From the NCBI RefSeq assembly GCF_018350175.1, contig NC_058368.1, positions 53,818,001-53,882,000 on the forward strand: DNA of 64,000 nucleotides, written 5' to 3'. The translations under genes and the position numbers were made by a program. This document shows, piece by piece, positions 9,092-45,295 of this stretch. The first letter of the stretch is position 1, and the number at the start of each line of letters is the position of its first letter. The stretch is from Felis catus. Lineage: Eukaryota. The notes beneath the pieces were generated by a model, which worked only from the letters and a program-made list of their open reading frames with translations, ran no database searches and was not told the DNA's origin.

Positions 9092-9452
9092 CATTTTAAG
9101 TGACTTTCTGCAAACAACATATAGTTGGGTCTTATTTTTTGATTCAAATTAACAATGTCTTTTTTTTTAATTGTTACACTTCGATCATTTGTGTTTAAAG
9201 TAATTATTGATATAGTTCAATTAATACTTATCATAACATTTATTACTGATTTCTATTTGTTGTCCTTATTCTTTGTTCCTATTTTGTTTTCTTTCATACT
9301 TTGTCTGTATTTTGTGGTTGTAATTGATCATTTTATATAGTTTTACTTTCTCTCGTTTCTTAGCCTATCAATTATACTTATTTTTTTCCTCCTTTTTTGG
9401 TGGTGGCAGTCCCAGGGTTGCTTATGTGTAGTTTTTGTGTGCAAGTCCATTT

Positions 9453-10780
9453 TTTTTTTAATATATGAAATTTATTGACAAATTGGTTTCCATACAACAC
9501 CCAGTGCTCATCCCAAAAGGTGCCCTCCTCAATACCCATCGCCCACCCTCTCCTCCCTCCCACCCCCCATCAACCCTCAGTTTGTTCTCAGTTTTTAAGA
9601 GTCTCCTGTGCTTTGGCTCTCTCCCACTCTAACCTTTTTTTTTTTCCTTCCCATCCCCCATGGGTTCCTGTTAAGTTTCTCAGGATCCACCTAAGAGTGA
9701 AACCATATGGTATCTGTCTTTCTCTGTATGGCTTATTTCACTTAGCATCACACTCTCCAGTTCCATCCACGTTGCTACAAAAGGCCATATTTCATTTTTT
9801 CTCATTGCCACATAATATTCCATTGTGTATATAAACCACAATTTCTTTATCCATTCATCAGTTGATGGACATTTAGGCTCTTTCCATAATTTGCTATTGT
9901 TGAGAGTGCTGCTATGAACATTGGGGTACAAGTGCCCCTATGCATCAGTACTCCTGTATCCCTTGGGTAAATTCCTAGCAGTGCTATTGCTGGGTCATAG
10001 GATAGGTCTATTTTTAATTTTCTGAGGAACCTCCACACTGCTTTCCAGAGCGGCTGCACCAATTTGCATTCCCACCAACAGTGCAAGAGGGTTCCCGTTT
10101 CTCCACATCCTCTCCAGCATCTAGAGTCTCCTGTTTGTTCATTTTGGCCACTCTGACTGGCGTGAGGTGATATCTGAGTGTGGTTTTGATTTGTATTTCC
10201 CTGATAAGGAGCGACGCTGAACATCTTTTCATGTGCCTGTTGGCCATCCGGATGTCTTCTTTAGAGAAGTGTCTATTCATGTTTTCTGCCCATTTCTTCA
10301 CTGGGTTATTTGTTTTTCGGGTGTGGAGTTTGGGGAGCTCTTTATAGATTTTGGATACTAGCCCTTTGTCCGATATGTCATTTGCGAATATCTTTTCCCA
10401 TTCCGTTGGTTGCCTTTTAGTTTTGTTGGTTGTTTCCTTTGCTGTGCAGAAGCTTTTTATCTTCATAAGGTCCCAGTAATTCACTTTTGCTTTTAATTCC
10501 CTTGCCTTTGGGGATGTGTCGAGTAAGAGATTGCTACGGCTGAGGTCAGAGAGGTCTTTTCCTGCTTTCTCCTCTAAGGTTTTGATGGTTTCCTGTCTCA
10601 CATTTAGGTCCTTTATCCATTTTGAGTTTATTTTTGTGAATGGTGTGAGAAAGTGGTCTAGTTTCAACCTTCTGCATGTTGCTGTCCAGTTCTCCCAGCA
10701 CCATTTGTTAAAGAGGCTGTCTTTTTTCCATTGGATGTTCTTTCCTGCTTTGTCAAAGATGAGTTGGCCATACATTTGTG
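9453..10780 (-). mobile_element. Young felid L1, 5'-truncated (~1.3 kb; ORF2 C-terminus plus 3'UTR, frameshifted)
   Basis: ORF 10014-10775 ([29 protein letters not shown]...), CCHC knuckle [18 protein letters not shown] in the next frame, poly(T) tail at left; TSD GTGCAA(G/A)TCCATTT at 9439-9452 and 10781-10794. Confidence 0.97.
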
Positions 10781-13700
10781 GTGCAAATCCATTTATGCAG
10801 CATGGGGTTCTCTGAGCTTCCTGGATCTATGGTTTGGTGTCTGACATTCATTTGGGATAATTCTCAATCATTATTGCCTCACACAGTGCTTCTCCTCTGT
10901 TTCATCGTCTTCTGGTATATCCATTACATGCATGTGACACATTTTGCAGTTGTCCCACATGTCTTGGATACTCTGTTCTATTTTTCTTTTTTTTTTTTCA
11001 CTTTGTTCATTTTTGGCAGTTTCTATGCTCATATCCTCCAACTTAGAGATTCTTTCCTCAGCTATGTCTGGTCTACTAATGAGCCCATCAAAGGCATTCT
11101 TCATTTCTGCTACAGTGTTTTTGAGCTCTAGCCTTTCTTTTTGATTCTTGGAATTTCCATCTCTCTGCTTACATTAACCATCTGTTCTTCCATGTTGCCT
11201 ATTTTTCCATTAAAGCCTTTAGCATATTAATTATAGTTAAAAAAAAAAAAAACAACTCCTGGTCTGACAATTCTAGCATTCCTACCATATCTGACTCTGG
11301 TTCTGATGCTTGTTCAGATTGTGTTCAAATTGTGTTGTTTCCTTTTTAGCGTAACTTGTAATTTTGTTGTGGCGGTGGTTGAAAAGTGAACATGATACAC
11401 TGAGTAAAAGAAACTTCTGTAAGTCGGGCTTTAGTAGTGGTATTGTGTTGGGGGAGGGAAGCGTTCTGTAGTCCTAGGATTAGGTCTCAGTCTTTTGGTG
11501 AACGTGTGCCCATGGAACTTTGCCAGTTCTTCTTGGTGCCCCCAACCTGCCCTGAGGTGGGGCAGAATGGGTTCAGGGAACTGGATTTGGATGTTTCTCT
11601 TCCCCAGGAAAGTCAGCTCTGCTAAAACCCCATCTGGTTAGACTCTGGTAAAAACGCTGTCTTCTCAGGGTAGGCCTTATTAAGAAGAACAGAATACTCT
11701 AGTATATTTGAAAATAGTTCCACTTATCCTCTCCCTGTTGGAAGTATCAGGGGATTTTTTTCCAGTTTTCACTCTGAGGTCTTGACAGAACTCCTGGAGG
11801 TAAAATGGTGTTTGATTAGTTGTTGTAGTTTGAAAATGTTAGGTGTCTATGTGGAATTTTGGGGGCACTTACCTGCTTGGTATTCTCACAAAAGTGTGGG
11901 GGTTCCCCTATGAGTGGGTCCCTTGGAGTTTTTAACCCCCAGATTTGTCCCCTCCGAGCCACCAGCATTTCATCAATTATAGTTCAGGCATTTTTAGTCC
12001 TGAGCTGGTTCCAGGGAGGTCTCTGCTTGTGGCTTTTAGCTCTAATAAGTTGTGATTTTCTGTATTTGTCTGTCTGTCACTCCAGTTTGGGGGGTGGGCA
12101 GTGGTTCACTCTGTGACCTCACTTTTCTGACAGATCTAAGAAGAGTTGATTTTTCAGTTTGTTCAGCTTACTTGTTGTTAGGATGGAGTGGTAACTCTTT
12201 ACCTATATTTATATGCAACATCTGTGGAGTCCTATCAATTTTCATTATAAGTGGCTTACAATAGGCTAGGCTTGGATTTCCCCATTGTGCAAAACTTGGG
12301 TCTTTAGGGACATTTTTGTTAAGCTCTGGTATATCTGGTTCTCACTTTGTTTGATCTACTAAAAAAGCAAAATCCTGATTGCCAGCCTCTGAGGCAGAGA
12401 CGTTTCACTGTAGAGCATGACTCTGCCTTGCCTGTCCCTCCCAACAAACAATTGCTGACTATGGGCCTGGGGTCCCCACCCAAGGTATATGACTAAGTTG
12501 CAATTGCAAAAATATCATAAGCAAGCACAGAATATTTGTTCAAGGAAACAGGACAATAAAGCTTACTTTCACCAAGCTATGTCTAGTTTAATCAGTATTG
12601 AGTGGCATGAGTAGAATCCTAAGAGCAATAAAAATAAGTATTGTCATAACCATTAGAAATAGTGTTCAGTGTTAAACTCTTGCCTTTATCACCTCTTCTT
12701 ATTCTCCTACAGATTTTGCCCCAGCACTGGTTAGCCTGGGTGATTATCTATTCCATAGATACTTATTGATTTCTGTAGTGCTGTTTTGTCCCTTTGTGAG
12801 CTATATGAGCTCTGATAAGCACTTTTTTTTTTAAATTTGGATTTCAGTGTTCAACACTTGATTTCTGAATCGTAGACTCCCTGAAAGTTTCAACTTCCAA
12901 AAGCATTTAATAAATTATGGATTATTGAGCAAAGGACTCATTTAGAGTGACGTTAATCAGAGAAAACCTCTTTGGAGAAGGCTGTAAACTAGAGGGCTTA
13001 TCTCCTTCCTTCCCTCCAGTCCCCTTAGCAACTTTCTGTAATGCCTCCCAGACCTGGTTCCAATTTCATGTCCCTTGAGAGGATGTCCCTAACTTCTCCT
13101 GTGAGTGACTCCTCTCTTCCCTACAAGCCTCTGAGATGACTTTTGGAAGGCTTCTATGGTTCATCTTTATATGTGCTATGTCCCCCTATCCCTTACACCG
13201 TGAGCTATACTAGAACAAGAACCACATTTCACCCTTTGAACAGAGCTCATTCCTCCTATAATACATGCCATTCATTTAGCTGAGATGATTTTGGTAGTTG
13301 ATGAAATATCATGTTTTATGAAAGTTCAATATATGTTATATATGTTCTAAACTGGCCTACAAGTGTGCTCAGTAGAAATGTGTGTGTGCCTTCTTTTTGT
13401 GTTTTCTTCAGTTCTGTGTACTTGGCAGGTGGTCGCTTGATGCTAGAATTCTCTGAACTGGAAGGAAACAGATGATATTCTTGATGGGCCCTTTCTTAAG
13501 AATCTCCTTGTTTATCATCATTTAAAAGCACTTATTAATTTACTTGCACATTGCTCATAGCAAGTAGAAGTTTAAACTAAGTGGTTTAATCTGTTCTTTT
13601 GGGCAGCTAAAATTATGCACACAAGTATTCACTCATGGAGAGCAAGAAAGGTGCCAGCTTATCTTGCATTACAGAGTACATTACACAGTATAAGGTACTG

Positions 13701-14107
13701 CAGCTGTTTTGAAAAATACCCTTTTATGGCAGGACCGAATCATGGGGTTGGGAGCTCATGCAAGCAAGCAGTTCCTTTGCAGCTCAGAGGGCACACTGCA
13801 GCGTTGGGGCAGGGATACTTCTCATGTCATTGCATATGCTCTAATCCAGATTCTCTTCACCACAAAACTGTTTTATGTGACTGAACTAACGGAAGAACGT
13901 TGCCCACATTTTCTTGTATACTTTCACTGGCAACAGGTCCAGCGCTAATCCATCCTCAAGCCTGACAGCCCGATGCGAGAAGAGGTAGCCCATGAGTTGG
14001 TGACTCTTCAGACAGAAGAAATGATTTAGGGTATTGCAGGTTGTCAGGCAGGTTCATTTAGGCTTATGCAGACAAAGTCTCCTTTTCCTAAGAAGTCACA
14101 AGAAGAA

Positions 14108-14330
14108 TTTTTTTTTTAATTTTTTTTTCAACGTTTATTTATTTTTGGGACAGAGAGAGACAGAGCATGAACGGGGGAGGGGCAGAGAGAGAGGGAGACA
14201 CAGAATCAGAAACAGGCTCCAGGCTCTGAGCCATCAGCCCAGAGCCCGACGCGGGGCTCGAACTCACGGACCGCGAGATCGTGACCTGGCTGAAGTCGGA
14301 CGCTTAACCGACTGCGCCACCCAGGCGCCC
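14108..14330 (-). mobile_element. Very young CAN-SINE (SINEC_Fc-type)
   Basis: CpG-rich, ends CCGACTGCGCCACCCAGGCGCCCC; flanks CACAAGAA(GAA)TTTTT. Confidence 0.97.
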
Positions 14331-14671
14331 CACAAGAATTTTTAATTGAATTATTCAGGTAATTGCTAAAATGTATTTTGCCTTGTGAGCAGCTTTGGAG
14401 TTTTCTTGCCTCTTTATTGATGATACGTTCAATAAATCCTATTGGAAGACCTCGACACCTGCCAACAGTCATCTTCTCCACTCTCAGGCCTGACATCATT
14501 CTGGGTGACTCAATATGACAATGTCTCCTCATGGTTCCGTACCCACCTCAAATTTAAGGACCTTCCCCAAGGCAGGCACCACTCCATGGCCACACTCTAA
14601 ACCACGTCAGATCCAGTTGGCCCACCTCTCAGATAGTCTTTTACTCATTCTTAGCCACTTGTTCCCAATCA

Positions 14672-14757: not shown

Positions 14758-15079
14758 CATAGAGAAGATTGGTCCATCTCTCAAATAAAGCCTTCACACT
14801 CATTCTTAACCATGTGTTCCCAAACATTTCTCTTTCTTTCCCTCCTTCCCTTCCTCCCCTCTTCTTTCCCTCATGTTACTGTTCTCAACATACCGATTCT
14901 TTGACTTCTTTAGTATCTGTATTTTAGAGCCCTTTGTCCCTCTCTCCACCAGATCCCTCCTGTCTCATTTAGCTTCCCACCCATGCTAGCGCTTTATCCC
15001 TTAGTTTACCAGTATTCTAAAATCTCTTAGTCTATTGTCTTCCCACCACACTGCTACAGAAAGAAGACCCACAAATCTT

Positions 15080-15311
15080 TTCTTTTTTTTTTTTTAATTT
15101 TTTTTTCAACGTTTATTTATTTTTGGGACAGAGAGAGACAGAGCATGAACGGGGGAGGGGCAGAGAGAGAGAGGGAGACACAGAATCGGAAACAGGCTCC
15201 AGGCTCCGAGCCATCAGCCCAGAGCCTGACGCAGGGCTCAAACTCACGGACCGTGAGATCGTGACCTGGCTGAAGTCGGACGCTTAACCGACTGCGCCAC
15301 CCAGGCGCCCC
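15080..15311 (-). mobile_element. Very young CAN-SINE (SINEC_Fc-type)
   Basis: perfect 16-bp TSD AAGACCCACAAATCTT at 15064-15079 and 15312-15327. Confidence 0.97.
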
Positions 15312-15366
15312 AAGACCCACAAATCTTAATGTAATTGCTACTTTCTCTGCTTTGATATTCATTGAT

Positions 15367-17570: not shown

Positions 17571-18666
17571 GCAGGTTTTTGAAATATCTCCCAAATCTGT
17601 ATTTCTAAGTCTGGTCTATTTTCAGACAACTGGAGCTACATAGCCAACTTCTTATTGGATAGCTCTGTTCAGAAGCATCTAAGAACCTTGAACTCAACAT
17701 TTCAAAAATGTAACCCATCATTTTCTCAATGTTGTGTCCTCCAGTGTTTCTAAGTCAGTGAATGGTAGCTCTGTTACCTAAGCCAGAAACCCAGGGGCCA
17801 TCTATGACTTCTCTCTTACTGCTTAGTCAATCACCAGGTCAATAAATAGTGAATAAAAGAATTCTGTTTCAGTTCTGTTAATCTTTCCAGCGTTATGCCA
17901 TCACCCTGATCTGTGCCATCACCATCGCTAACCTGGACCACTGAAAATGCCTCATAGTTTGTATCTATTCATAATTCTCACACGTCCATTTTTCACATGG
18001 TAGCTCAAATGATCTTCTGTGAATGTCAGTTCCCCAAATCCAAACTCACTGTAAATTCTTCCAATATTCTTAAGACAAGCATGGCTTCCGAGATTATCCA
18101 TGACCCATCTCTCCTGTGACAGATGCTTTTTGCTTTCTTTAAGGCTCCATGCTGTCGCTTGCGTCTGGATCTTTGCACATCCGTGCCCCTTGCCTGACTC
18201 TTATCCCTCACCTTCACACGTTTCCTGCGTGAAACTTGCCCTGATATCCCTCAAGAACATAGAACCCATATTATACTCTATTGTGTAAACGTCTGTCTTT
18301 CCTGAGAAAATGCCAGTTACGTGAGGGCAGGAAAAGAGTCTTATTCTTCCTCAGCACCTAGCATAGTGCCCAGTATGTAATAGTGCCAAGTAAATATTTG
18401 GTTAAAGGATGAACAGATCCTCATTTGTGTGTATCTAAGGCTTGTGAAGGTAGGTAAAGACTAAGGCATTGGTATTCTCATCACTCAGGTCCAAGTTCCA
18501 CTTTTACTCCTAATTTCTTTACTCATTAAAATGAACATTAAAAACAGTGATAACTGCTGTCATGGCATGATCCTCAATCACAAACAGCAGCCCTGTTTCC
18601 TGTACACATATATGATTGTTACATTAACTCATGGTGCTTCAAAGGGACACAAAAATAGCAAAAGCT

Positions 18667-19058
18667 TATTTCACTTAGCTAACACTCTCCAGTTCCATCC
18701 AAACTGAGGGCTGATGGGGGGTGGGAGGGAGGAGAGGGTGGGTGATGGGCATTGAGGGGGGCACCTGTTGGGATGAGCACCGGGTGTTGTATGGAAACCA
18801 ATTTGATAATAAATTTCATATATTTAAAAAATTTTTTTAAAAATGTAAAGGATATACACCTGCTCCCAAAATATCCTTGTCAGAAAGCCAAAAATCCATA
18901 ATGATAGTTCAATACTTAAGTTAGTCTAAAGAACTGCGAAGCTGCTTTACTAACAAATTTTTGAGCGTTTCTCTTACCTCTGTCTCTGTACAATGGGAGT
19001 GTCGCAATTTACCTGTAATAAAAATACAAAAAGTTACTTTCAAAAAAACCCCAACAAA
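18667..19058 (+). mobile_element. Young felid L1 insertion with 5' inversion and 3' transduction
   Basis: antisense L1 piece 18664-18701, sense L1 3' end 18700-18831, unique ~200 bp with AATAAA (19017-19022) and an A-rich tail; perfect 18-bp TSD at 18649-18666 and 19059-19076. Confidence 0.88.
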
Positions 19059-19171
19059 ACAAAAATAGCAAAAGCTACTATTAAGAATAGGCCAAGAATG
19101 GGTTACAAATAACCCAAAAACAGAGCAAAAGTTGCTTTCCAATTCAAGAAAATGTGCATTTTATGTATAGA

Positions 19172-19295
19172 CTATATACACACACGCACACACACACACA
19201 CATACACACATACACACATATTCTATATATACACATGTATAGACATATATTACATCTCTGTATATGTATGTATATGTATACACACATTTATATAC
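19172..19295. repeat. (CA)/(TA) compound microsatellite
   Basis: direct reading. Confidence 0.9.
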
Positions 19296-20332
19296 AATTT
19301 CTTTTTATTCCAACTTCCTGAGTTTATAGCAGGAGAAAAAAACTATAAATTTTATGGTTATTAAACTAGCTAAACTCAAGCCATGTTTTTAATTCAGAAA
19401 GGGCCAAACATAATTCCAAGTGATTTGGTCTAGCACTTTCTTAAATGACAAAAGAAGAGTTCCTTGTGAAATCATTATGGTCAATATGCTCTACATTTAT
19501 CTAAATTAAATGAAGACAATCTCTAATTATGAGAGATAAGGTGCATTTACCTAACTTCAAGCTTGCAAATATTTGGTTAAAAAATCATTTTGTATAGAAA
19601 TTTTTAAAAGAATGCTTAACCAATAATAAAAAATATTTTAATGCCCTAAACTATGTTACTATTATGTTAAGACAAAGATTTCAATTACACCAAAGTCTGA
19701 AAATTCAGAATGACTATTCCCAAGGAAATTGTAATCCATCCCCTGAGTGTACAATTCTGTTTTTGAAAGAAGTTCTTTTAACACAAGACAATGCAACCTT
19801 TTATTTGGTACATCAGGCAATTCAATAAAATACTATGGGAAAGGATGGATCTATGTAAGGTTTAAGGGCTTTGATTTGCATTTAAATGGCATCATTTTTA
19901 AAAAAAAATGTCTGTGCCTTTTTCAGTGGAGAGTTTAATAAAAGATGGAAAATATTACTGACTGTAAAAGTATGCATACAATTGGTCTTCAGTGAAAAAC
20001 GTAGAGAATTTTTTTATTAGAAGATAAATAGCAAAGCTTTTCCTGATGAGACTGAGTCAGTGCCCCCAAGCCAATGCTCGATCCAAGTAATTTGGTGACT
20101 AGTTTTATGTTTTTGTCTGTAGTAACATCCTCACAATTTTGAGTTTGGGGAAGCAAATTGTTTGATAATAATAATAAAGTTAAAAAAAGACCTGTTTCGA
20201 TACTTTGTGACTCTGAACTGTTGAGGGCAGCCACAGAAAGATCTACTTACAAAAAGGAGAGAGTTTAGGAGCTGAAACTTAAAAAGAGAAAAAAGTAGCT
20301 CCCAGAAAATAAATGGGAAGAATGAATGATGT

Positions 20333-31100: not shown

Positions 31101-33073
31101 TTAAAACTTTGATTTTTATCTCTACAGTGCAGTGAGAGCACTATAAACCCTATGCCACTGTTTTCTGTTTTGCTTCCATGCTCTGTGCCAAAACCCAGCC
31201 TACTCCCCGAGGGCTTGTGGGGCTCACCTCAAAGTATTTCCCTTCTCTCTGCAATCAAGACTCAATCTTCAAGGATTCAGGATCTAGAAACTTCAAGTCC
31301 TGGCTTCACTGGTTTCCATTTGTAACGTTTAGTATTTTTGTTTTTGTTTTTGTTTTTTTCTCTTTTTTTCTTTTAGATAGAGATTTTGTAGTTATCCTTT
31401 ATGGCAGATGAGACACAAGATACTTCCTCTTAGACACATCAGTTTACTCCCCCCACCTCACCCCAGGTAAAATTTTACTGGTAAAATGCATTTCACTTCT
31501 GCTGCTGTCATACCACGTATTTGTTCAGTTTATTATTACCTAGAGAATGACAATCTAGAGATATTGAGAATCTTTTTGAAAATATTTAGTTTAAAAATTA
31601 GTCATAATATTTCCCTTTTTTTTGTGTGTCTTGATACAATAGGTTGTATGTATGTGTGTGTGTGCTATTTCAATATCTGATTTTATCTCTAACGCAATTG
31701 TAATTCTTTTTTTAAAGGATTGCCATGGCAAAACTGGCTTTTTTTTTTAAAGATGGGAGAGGAAGCATCGAACACTAGTTATTTTTGAGTTTCATCAAAC
31801 CTGTGTGTTCCTTCTTGTGTGTAACAGTATGGGAATTGCTGTGATAGAGATGAGGATTGAAAACCCCTACTAGTGAAGCTAAAACTCCCCTGGGATGTTC
31901 TCTGATTCATAAATATAGATCAGCACATACAAATAGTTCTCATCTGTTATGTTGCAAATCTTTTCTCACTGCTGAAAACATTGAGCATTGTTGGTGGCTC
32001 AGTAGCATCATCTTTCTCTAGAAAGAACAATCCCTAACAATTTTCGGTACTTTAATGTCACAATGGGGAATGGCTCAGTCATAAAACAGGTAATTTACTC
32101 ATCATGGACAAATGAGTGAATCATGATGTGGTCACTTGGATCTATATCCCATTTGTGATTATTTCTTTAATTCATTAACGAGAAAACAAGACTTTTCATG
32201 CCAGTGTTTTTTGCCGTCCATGAGAAGCAGCATGCTTGCATTTTCACTTTCTATTCAGGCCACTGTGAATTCTGTCTCTTAAATTATTTATATCAGATGA
32301 GTCTTTCCTCATTAAGCTTTGCCGCCTGGCCCTGTCCTGGAAGCTCTGGACCCAGGGCACTGTTTCTCCGAGTACCGTCTCCTAAACCATGCCTTTATCC
32401 AGGTGAGCTCAGGTTATGCTGAGCATCAAGGGCAGCCTTCAAAAAAGAAAAGATACACAAAATAGTATCTTGCAGTTTGAAGAGTAGAAGGAGGGATAGA
32501 GAGTTAGACAGTCCCACCCACTTGTCCTGGTACTGGGAGAGGAATTATGTTCCAGCTCTATATATTGAGACTACAGAGTAATAAGACTGGTTCAACAGGT
32601 CACTCAGGAAAATCATATTCTTCTGGCCATACCAAACAGCTTTAGATCTTTCTTAGGTAGTGCTCTCAGAACCACTTTCTTTTTCTTCACTCTGGAAGAG
32701 TCACTCCCTGGACCTGCAATGTCCCCTCCCATCATCTTTCATCCAGTTGGAGCTGTGAGTGGAAGACCACTGTGGGAGCAGCGTGCATCCAGGGTGATCA
32801 AGTGTAGCTGGGCAGGGAAGGCTTCTGAGCTGGAGATAGAAAAGCCTCCACTGCATAACTCTGATGATTGTGCCATTTTGTTCTCTAAGACAATTGCTAT
32901 TCTGTCTTTGAAACAGATCCAATAGAGAATATATTAATTGTCCCAAAAGCCCTTGCACTCTTGCCATTATTTAAGTCAAAAGCAGCCTGGTGATAGTGAC
33001 ACAGGGCAACTGAGAAAGATGTACTGTCAGGGTGGAAAGAGGGGAGAAAACATTATCAGAAAAACCTGGATAG

Positions 33074-44844: not shown

Positions 44845-45295
44845 ATATGGCAGAGGCTTCTGTTTGTCTCCACAGGGTTTGTTCTCATTCTTTCCTGTGA
44901 TAATACAAACCCTGATTTGGGGCTTGACCTACTGACACTAGAGGCAACACCACGTGTTCCTATCTCCCTTGCTGGGTGTGGCCCTGTGACAAGTTCTGGA
45001 TATGTACATTCAGCTTCCAGAACATATCCTCCGTCTTCCCTTTTGCTGCTGGGAGATGGGTGTGAGGGCTGGCTACTCATCTTGAATGGTGAGGATAAGG
45101 AAGCACTGCAGCGATGGCGGCATGGAATGCAGGACGCAACAGGTGCTACAGATCTGACTGTGGAATCGCCATTCCATCCCTGAATCACGTCAATCCAGAC
45201 TTTAATGCAAAAAGAAATGAAGATTTCATGTGTTTATGCTTTAGGCATTTAAGATCTCTATGAGGGGCAGACAAATATAAATCCTAATGAAACCA
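44845..45295 (+). mobile_element. Old MaLR LTR (MLT1H-K-like)
   Basis: CTCCCTTGC..GGTGTGGCC.TGTGAC.AAGTTCTGG motif; LTR-like end before the internal sequence. Confidence 0.65.

What the first reader, a model, noticed from the sequence alone, without database searches (positions are those of the whole stretch)
18649..19076. One L1 insertion combining twin-priming 5' inversion and a ~200-bp 3' transduction
Seen: a perfect 18-bp direct repeat ACAAAAATAGCAAAAGCT (18649-18666 and 19059-19076) brackets three parts. (a) 38 bp of antisense L1 (18664-18701, matching 9731-9769 of the young L1 in this window). (b) The sense L1 3' end (18700-18831), with ~145 nt of L1 missing between a and b. (c) ~200 bp of non-L1 sequence with its own AATAAA (19017-19022) about 19 nt before a decayed A-tail. 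The last bases of the left TSD (GCT) overlap the start of the inverted piece. Known: this microhomology is the twin-priming signature, and read-through past the weak L1 polyA signal produces 3' transductions. Inference: the unique segment was copied from the flank of a source L1 elsewhere, so it tags a once-active feline source element. A repeat masker would leave it looking like ordinary unique DNA.
Basis: partly seen in the sequence, partly recalled or inferred. Interest (0 to 1): 0.7.

Follow-up and report, generated by a model that had tools for sequence, protein, structure and literature searches.

The report
L1 insertion carrying a stray exon
An old jumping-gene (LINE-1) copy in a cat-family genome brought along about 200 bases from another place in the genome, apparently including one whole small exon of the SPIRE1 gene turned backwards; this is a neat but textbook kind of accident with no sign that the exon copy is used.

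Summary
The anatomy is real: an 18-bp direct repeat encloses an inverted 38-nt L1 piece, the L1 3' end, about 205 nt of non-L1 DNA with its own AATAAA, and a decayed A-tail. Contigs of 4 of 4 public runs show exactly one second locus sharing the non-L1 segment, from just after the first tail (18841) to the poly(A) site (19044), about 5% diverged. So the segment was copied from elsewhere. No L1 was seen next to that second locus; 'parentless' transductions are the rule in dogs. Its translation matches the human SPIRE1 KIND domain at 8 of 12 residues (E 0.65, not significant alone), and an independently located difference at 19004 falls on the first mismatched codon. Most likely an L1 lying antisense in a SPIRE1 intron read through the exon and ended at an AATAAA formed by the acceptor's pyrimidine tract. 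No host gene or use is shown. Inversion plus transduction is textbook: new member of a known kind.

The parts
18649..18666 (+). Left target-site duplication (18 nt identical; endonuclease-compatible core 18651-18666)
18664..18701 (-). Inverted L1 piece (twin-priming second cDNA); 3-nt microhomology with the TSD, 2-nt with the next piece
   Evidence: 37/39 to window 9731-9769; junctions
18700..18825 (+). L1 3' end in sense orientation, with its own AATAAA at 18808-18813; 146 nt of L1 deleted between this and the inverted piece
   Evidence: 123/132 to reverse complement of 9453-9584
18826..18840 (+). First, decayed A/T tract (tail of the source L1)
   Evidence: sequence; the second-locus match starts at 18841
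18841..19044 (+). Transduced non-L1 segment, shared with exactly one other genomic locus
   Evidence: second-locus contig 18841-18931 (5 differences in 91); two-copy nodes 18902-18937 and 19005-19044; exit at 19044/19045
18841..18977 (-). 137 nt of the intron downstream of the captured exon, starting with a strong splice donor at 18977
   Evidence: donor rank 23 of 6411 GT sites in the window
18978..19012 (-). Captured 35-nt exon, probably SPIRE1 KIND-domain exon (exon 2 by recall)
   Evidence: rank 4 of 241 candidate exons; 8/12 identity to human SPIRE1 in this register, E 0.65-0.73; difference at 19004
19013..19044 (-). 32 nt of the upstream intron: pyrimidine tract and AG acceptor
   Evidence: acceptor rank 110 of 8885 AG sites
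19017..19022 (+). Poly(A) signal used by the read-through RNA; it is the reverse complement of part of the acceptor's pyrimidine tract
19042..19058 (+). Final poly(A) tail, decayed; only the first three A are shared with the second locus
19059..19076 (+). Right target-site duplication

Best explanation
One L1 retrotransposition event. A source L1 lay antisense in the intron just downstream of a 35-nt coding exon, most likely SPIRE1's, 137 nt from the donor (inferred). Its RNA ran past the L1 poly(A) signal and through the exon backwards. It was cleaved 19-22 nt after an AATAAA that is the mirror of the acceptor's pyrimidine tract (anatomy shown, transcription inferred). At this site ORF2p primed on the poly(A) tail and copied the transduced segment plus 126 nt of L1. 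The second target end annealed internally by 3 nt and copied 38 nt. The two cDNAs joined at a 2-nt overlap, losing 146 nt and leaving a 16-18-bp TSD (anatomy shown; mechanism from established twin-priming model). The source L1 is probably no longer at the donor locus ('parentless'; inferred). The exon copy is an orphan: 35 nt (not a multiple of three), drifting, with no partner exon found, so most likely inert.
For: TSD, junction microhomologies and deletion. A second locus in 4 of 4 runs whose likeness begins right after the first tail and ends at the poly(A) site. Shared nodes have about the summed depth of two single-copy contigs: X17 27/26 vs 26; X12 50/40 vs 47; X20 58/68 vs 67; X18 50/55 vs 58. 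Only 2 acceptor-donor pairs this strong and this close occur in 128 kb of both strands, and one is this one (thresholds set at the observed scores). The SPIRE1 match is in exact exon register, 8 of 12 identical. Three of the four mismatches need one base change and one needs two. The node boundary at 19005 was noted, before the PDB search. It puts a difference at 19004, the one base that separates the copy's Arg codon from Gly (likelihood ratio 11-30). 5' inversion is common in L1 copies but rare in trans-mobilised RNAs (PMC2912911 passages). Parentless transductions are the majority in dogs: 17 of 18 (PMC7980453) and 24 of 27 (PMC13141329).
Against: No L1 was seen at the second locus: 96 upstream letters of its contig did not lay on 18788-18840, and their sequence was not shown. 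The SPIRE1 hit is not significant by itself. E is 0.65-0.73, a chemokine scored as well, and about 1 chance hit of this score is expected in a PDB-size set. A 20-aa version of the query gave no PDB hit. Pfam gave 0 of 3, the protein database 0 of 7 candidates, the Atlas nothing. That SPIRE1 has a 35-nt exon at exactly these codons is recalled and could not be verified. The letter at 19004 in the second locus was not seen. No outgroup empty site could be examined.
Confidence: 0.72

Rival explanations
1. Chimera of two RNAs. Reverse transcription began on a polyadenylated antisense RNA from the donor locus, then switched (or was ligated) to the 3' end of an L1 RNA, which was twin-primed. A variant: a host antisense RNA holding an L1 3' end was mobilised in trans.
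For: No L1 end laid next to the second locus. RNA-L1 chimeras by template switch or ligation are documented (PMC13174262 passages and section 13).
Against: In the passages I read, the documented chimeras put the foreign RNA 5' of L1, not 3'. The two A-tracts and the L1-unique-tail order are the standard transduction layout (PMC4859970). Missing parents are common. Inversion is rare in trans-mobilised RNAs.
Confidence: 0.13
2. It is a true 3' transduction, but the exon-like look and the SPIRE1 match are chance; the donor is anonymous DNA.
For: E 0.65; about 1 chance hit expected. An A-rich poly(A) site on one strand tends to look like an acceptor on the other. A donor this strong follows a given acceptor by chance about 2.4% of the time.
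Against: The match fills the predicted exon in register. Mismatches are near-minimal codon changes. The 19004 difference coincides with the Arg/Gly codon.
Confidence: 0.11
3. The segment is native flank, or came by a separate DNA-level duplication, and a short inverted L1 landed beside it; the 18-mer repeat is chance or belongs to an earlier event.
For: The outgroup test was not possible. DNA-templated insertions next to L1 are known (bioRxiv 2024.08.27.596794 passages).
Against: 0 of 5000 simulations give such a repeat. The L1 piece has no TSD of its own. The shared segment ends exactly at a poly(A) signal-cleavage-tail arrangement.
Confidence: 0.04

Closest known systems
LRE2-derived L1 insertion in DMD (Holmes et al. 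1994; seen only as row 82 of Table 1 and text in PMC4859970; the name LRE2 is recalled)
   Same: One insertion that is 5'-truncated, 5'-inverted and carries a 3' transduction (489 bp), inside one TSD.
   Different: Human, de novo and disease-causing, about 1.4 kb. Here it is an old felid copy of about 390 nt between the TSDs, with only about 165 nt of L1.
'Parentless' canine LINE-1 3' transductions (PMC7980453; PMC13141329; passages)
   Same: Carnivore L1 with unique 3' sequence that maps to a second locus with no L1 seen beside it.
   Different: Those are dimorphic and near-identical to the source (95% or more required). This one is about 5% diverged and showed no empty allele in 4 of 4 runs. 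The dog study did not assess hallmarks in twin-primed loci.
Exon shuffling by L1 retrotransposition (Moran et al. 1999; seen as cited and summarised in PMC4859970)
   Same: L1 read-through moves a complete exon with its splice sites to a new place.
   Different: Here the exon is antisense to the L1, the poly(A) signal is supplied by the acceptor's pyrimidine tract, and no recipient gene or splicing is shown.
Twin-priming 5' inversion (Ostertag and Kazazian 2001, as cited; figures from PMC2912911 and PMC5668948 passages)
   Same: Inverted upstream piece, junction deletion, 2-5-nt microhomologies; 18-31% of human L1 insertions in those data sets.
   Different: Unusually short arms (38 nt inverted), with the inversion only about 130 nt from the L1 3' end.

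Membership tests
L1 target-primed insertion | Target-site duplication of 4-20 bp at both ends | tested here: met
   18/18 identical; 0 of 5000 simulations reach it
L1 target-primed insertion | Endonuclease-type cut site (5'-YYYY/RR, variants common) | tested here: inconclusive
   5'-TTTT/GT if the TSD is the inner 16 bp; poor fit for 18 bp (consensus)
L1 target-primed insertion | 3' poly(A) tail next to the right TSD | tested here: met
   decayed A-rich tract 19042-19058; only 3 A shared with the second locus
L1 target-primed insertion | Empty site in an outgroup or other allele | not testable with these tools
   no genome held; 19 of 20 holder runs carry one species label and one has none; contig 19015-19160 unbroken across the TSD in 4 of 4 runs
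Twin-priming 5' inversion | 5' piece inverted and derived from upstream of the non-inverted piece, with small deletion or duplication | tested here: met
   9731-9769 versus 9453-9584; 146 nt deleted
Twin-priming 5' inversion | Microhomology at the TSD junction and at the inversion junction | tested here: met
   3 nt and 2 nt; about 70% of human cases have 2-5 nt. Short overlaps also arise by chance (about 1 in 64 for 3 nt).
Partnered L1 3' transduction | Non-L1 DNA between two A-tracts, with its own poly(A) signal, inside one TSD | tested here: met
Partnered L1 3' transduction | The same sequence at a second locus, ending at the cleavage site | tested here: met
   4 of 4 runs; match 18841-19044; exit at 19044 fits exactly in 3 of 4 runs, while X12 has about 13 extra aligned letters unexplained
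Partnered L1 3' transduction | Source L1 directly upstream at the second locus (absent in 'parentless' cases) | tested here: inconclusive
   96 upstream letters did not lay on 18788-18840; letters not displayed
L1-mediated exon shuffling | Complete exon with acceptor and donor inside the transduced DNA | tested here: met
   (approximate, recalled splice-site matrices)
L1-mediated exon shuffling | Exon traceable to a donor gene | tested here: inconclusive
   SPIRE1 8/12, E 0.65, plus the 19004 coincidence; exon size not verified in print
L1-mediated exon shuffling | Exon spliced into a recipient transcript | not tested
   no RNA run was laid; no host coding gene found: 0 Pfam hits above cut-off in the 149 longest of 1017 stop-free non-repeat segments
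Processed pseudogene of SPIRE1 | Introns removed and poly(A) on the mRNA strand | tested here: not met
   intron flanks with both splice sites retained; the tail is on the opposite strand

The most novel reading that the evidence does not exclude
The captured SPIRE1 exon kept both strong splice sites because it is spliced into an unannotated minus-strand transcript crossing this locus. That would make it a natural, felid-specific case of L1 exon shuffling, produced by a bias in which antisense intronic L1s terminate at AATAAA motifs formed by pyrimidine tracts and so deliver splice-ready exons.
Probability: 0.06. Interest if true: 0.55.

Novelty: new member of a known kind. Interest (0 to 1): 0.27.

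Why it matters
As it stands it is a fossil. It marks where an active felid L1 probably once sat (a SPIRE1 intron), and it shows exon-shuffling raw material in a lineage for which my searches found no transduction catalogue. It also warns that a SPIRE1 exon probe or read can map twice in cats. It suggests one testable idea: antisense intronic L1s may end preferentially at poly(A) signals formed by acceptor pyrimidine tracts, which would enrich transductions for whole exons. Without evidence of splicing, none of this would surprise a specialist.

Tried and rejected
No whole genome is held, so BLAST of the segment and the outgroup alignment were impossible. The metagenome scan with a 22-mer from the shared node gave 1 locus, L001, an AT-rich phage-like contig matching over 26 nt only; rejected as chance. 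Rfam: 14 sub-threshold matches, 13 on the CA/TA microsatellite at 19154-19297 and none meaningful in the segment. This would fit the tool's silent removal of human-like contigs, but a part without cover is no finding and I do not count it. Depth at this locus looked lower than at other loci in run X20; too noisy to read. I recalled that inversions avoid the last 590 nt before the poly(A) tail and wanted to use that as support. The only passage found concerns the first 590 bp at the 5' end (PMC5668948) and PMC2912911 has no such figure, so the argument was dropped. The other open frame of the exon is 19 residues between stops, too short for the PDB search, and stays unsearched. Protein database 0 of 7 candidates, Pfam 0 of 3, Atlas no usable hit, 20-aa PDB query 0 hits. 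Attempts to verify SPIRE1's exon size in print failed: searches; passages of bioRxiv 2020.06.19.161109 and 591974; supplements of PMC4317164 (file 1 unreadable), PMC11231147 (one PDF too large), PMC10238271 and PMC8300399. The closed bioRxiv supplement (SPIRE alignment, Data S1 of 591974) and unseen figures could settle it. PMC5679753 was irrelevant; PMC156586 is not held. No SPIRE1 orthologue was obtained, so the cat residues at the four mismatched positions remain unknown.

Full report
Observation. The 18-mer repeat is exact and far beyond chance: 0 of 5000 simulated flanks gave a match of 18 nt anchored at the L1 edge, the longest being 13. Similar exact repeats elsewhere in the window lie at the edges of other interspersed repeats. 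The inverted piece matches window 9731-9769 at 37/39, and the sense piece matches the reverse complement of 9453-9584 at 123/132, so 146 nt are missing between them. The junctions share 3 nt and 2 nt. AATAAA lies 19 nt before the final tail. The true TSD may be the inner 16 bp, which gives a 5'-TTTT/GT cut.

Second locus. No genome is held. Twenty public DNA runs from 9 studies hold 83-88% of the words of the region; they are selected for holding it. I laid four contig sets, from four studies, on 18788-19160. In 4 of 4 runs, three exact contigs trace this locus, and a further 187-nt contig aligns over 18841-18931 with 5 differences in 91 and 96 unaligned letters upstream. Fitting the depth table gives the same hidden nodes in all runs: 18902-18937, and 19005-19044 (19045 in X12), each at about the summed depth of two single-copy contigs. 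A second exit contig leaves at 19044 in 3 of 4 runs; in X12 it runs on to about 19057, which I cannot explain. So exactly one other locus shares the segment, from just after the first A/T tract to three A into the final tail. This is the pattern of an RNA copy cleaved at a poly(A) site, and it makes a native flank very unlikely. Divergence is 5.5% (95% interval 1.8-12.8%), so the event is old; by recalled mammalian rates, some millions to tens of millions of years. The contig across the right TSD is unbroken in 4 of 4 runs, so no empty allele shows, though contigs drop rare variants. In dogs most transductions lack a visible parent: 17 of 18 (PMC7980453, passages) and 24 of 27 (PMC13141329, passages).

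What the segment is. Read on the minus strand it holds a pyrimidine tract and AG, 35 nt, and a strong donor. The pair ranks 4 of 241 candidate exons in the window; acceptor 110 of 8885, donor 23 of 6411 (approximate matrices from recall). A 46-residue translation searched against the PDB returned 3 sequences at E up to 10: a chemokine (E 0.63) and two human SPIRE1 KIND constructs (E 0.65, 0.73). The SPIRE1 alignment is ungapped, and 8 of the 12 exon-encoded residues are identical. By itself this is not significant: about one such score is expected by chance in a set of that size, and four other searches found nothing. Two things raise it. Three of the four mismatches are single-base changes and the fourth needs two. 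The contig graph had already placed a difference between the two loci at 19004 (noted), which is the one base separating the copy's Arg codon from SPIRE1's Gly; likelihood ratio 11-30. I also recall that SPIRE1 exon 2 is 35 nt and splits its first codon in this way, but I could not verify that in print (see Tried and rejected). I put the SPIRE1 assignment at about 0.85.

How it worked. Shown: one TSD, an inverted and deleted L1 end, two A-tracts, a duplicated segment bounded by them, and splice sites on the opposite strand. Inferred: a source L1 antisense in the intron, 137 nt downstream of the exon; read-through past the L1 signal at 18808; cleavage after an AATAAA that is the reverse complement of the acceptor's pyrimidine tract, so that the exon came whole with 32 nt of upstream intron; then twin priming at the target. 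5' inversion is frequent in L1 copies (31%) and rare in Alu and SVA (PMC2912911, passages), which favours one L1 RNA carried in cis over a two-RNA chimera. The chimera stays open because the parent was not seen (PMC13174262, passages and section 13).

Function. None shown. No host coding gene was found: none of the 149 longest of 1017 stop-free, non-repeat segments passes a Pfam cut-off, which is a weak test for short exons. The exon is not a multiple of three and appears to have changed at least one codon. No RNA run was examined.

Comparison and novelty. The first 3' transduction reported, in DMD, was already truncated, inverted and transduced (PMC4859970, passages and Table 1 row 82). In one tumour series 35% of somatic insertions were transductions, and partnered transductions with twin priming are described (bioRxiv 2024.08.27.596794, passages). 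Exon shuffling by this route is the classic proposal of Moran et al. 1999 (seen only as cited). I found no paper on this locus, or on felid L1 transductions, and no earlier scan note naming SPIRE1; the library lacks most subscription journals. Verdict: a real, well-formed new member of a known kind, with a captured exon as a modest extra. Interest 0.27.

Noticed in passing
window 9439-10794 (minus strand): The L1 used as reference is a 5'-truncated 1.33-kb copy with a 14-bp TSD carrying one mismatch. It sits against older L1 sequence: a sub-cut-off ORF1 trimerisation-domain hit at 10874-11173. The two merge into one 270-aa stop-free frame at 10014-10826, an apparent nested L1-in-L1.
   Followed up: partly
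window 18805-18807: In runs X17 and X18 the contig of this locus carries 3 letters before 18808 that do not fit the window, so 18807 may be polymorphic, or the contig end is joined to another L1.
   Followed up: no
window 19045-19057, run X12: Extra depth equal to the second-locus exit contig extends about 13 letters further than in the other three runs; allele difference or chance A-rich extension.
   Followed up: partly
window 14106-14347 and 15077-15315: Two near-identical SINE copies 980 nt apart with exact runs of 86 and 58 nt: very young copies or local gene conversion.
   Followed up: no
window 32259-32402 (+) and 44876-45088 (+): The two highest-scoring exon-like pairs in the window; no Pfam support in the overlapping frames tested, so possibly non-coding exons or chance.
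   Followed up: partly
L001:300-810: The chance-hit metagenome contig is a very AT-rich, gene-dense, phage-like fragment, unrelated to this finding.
   Followed up: no
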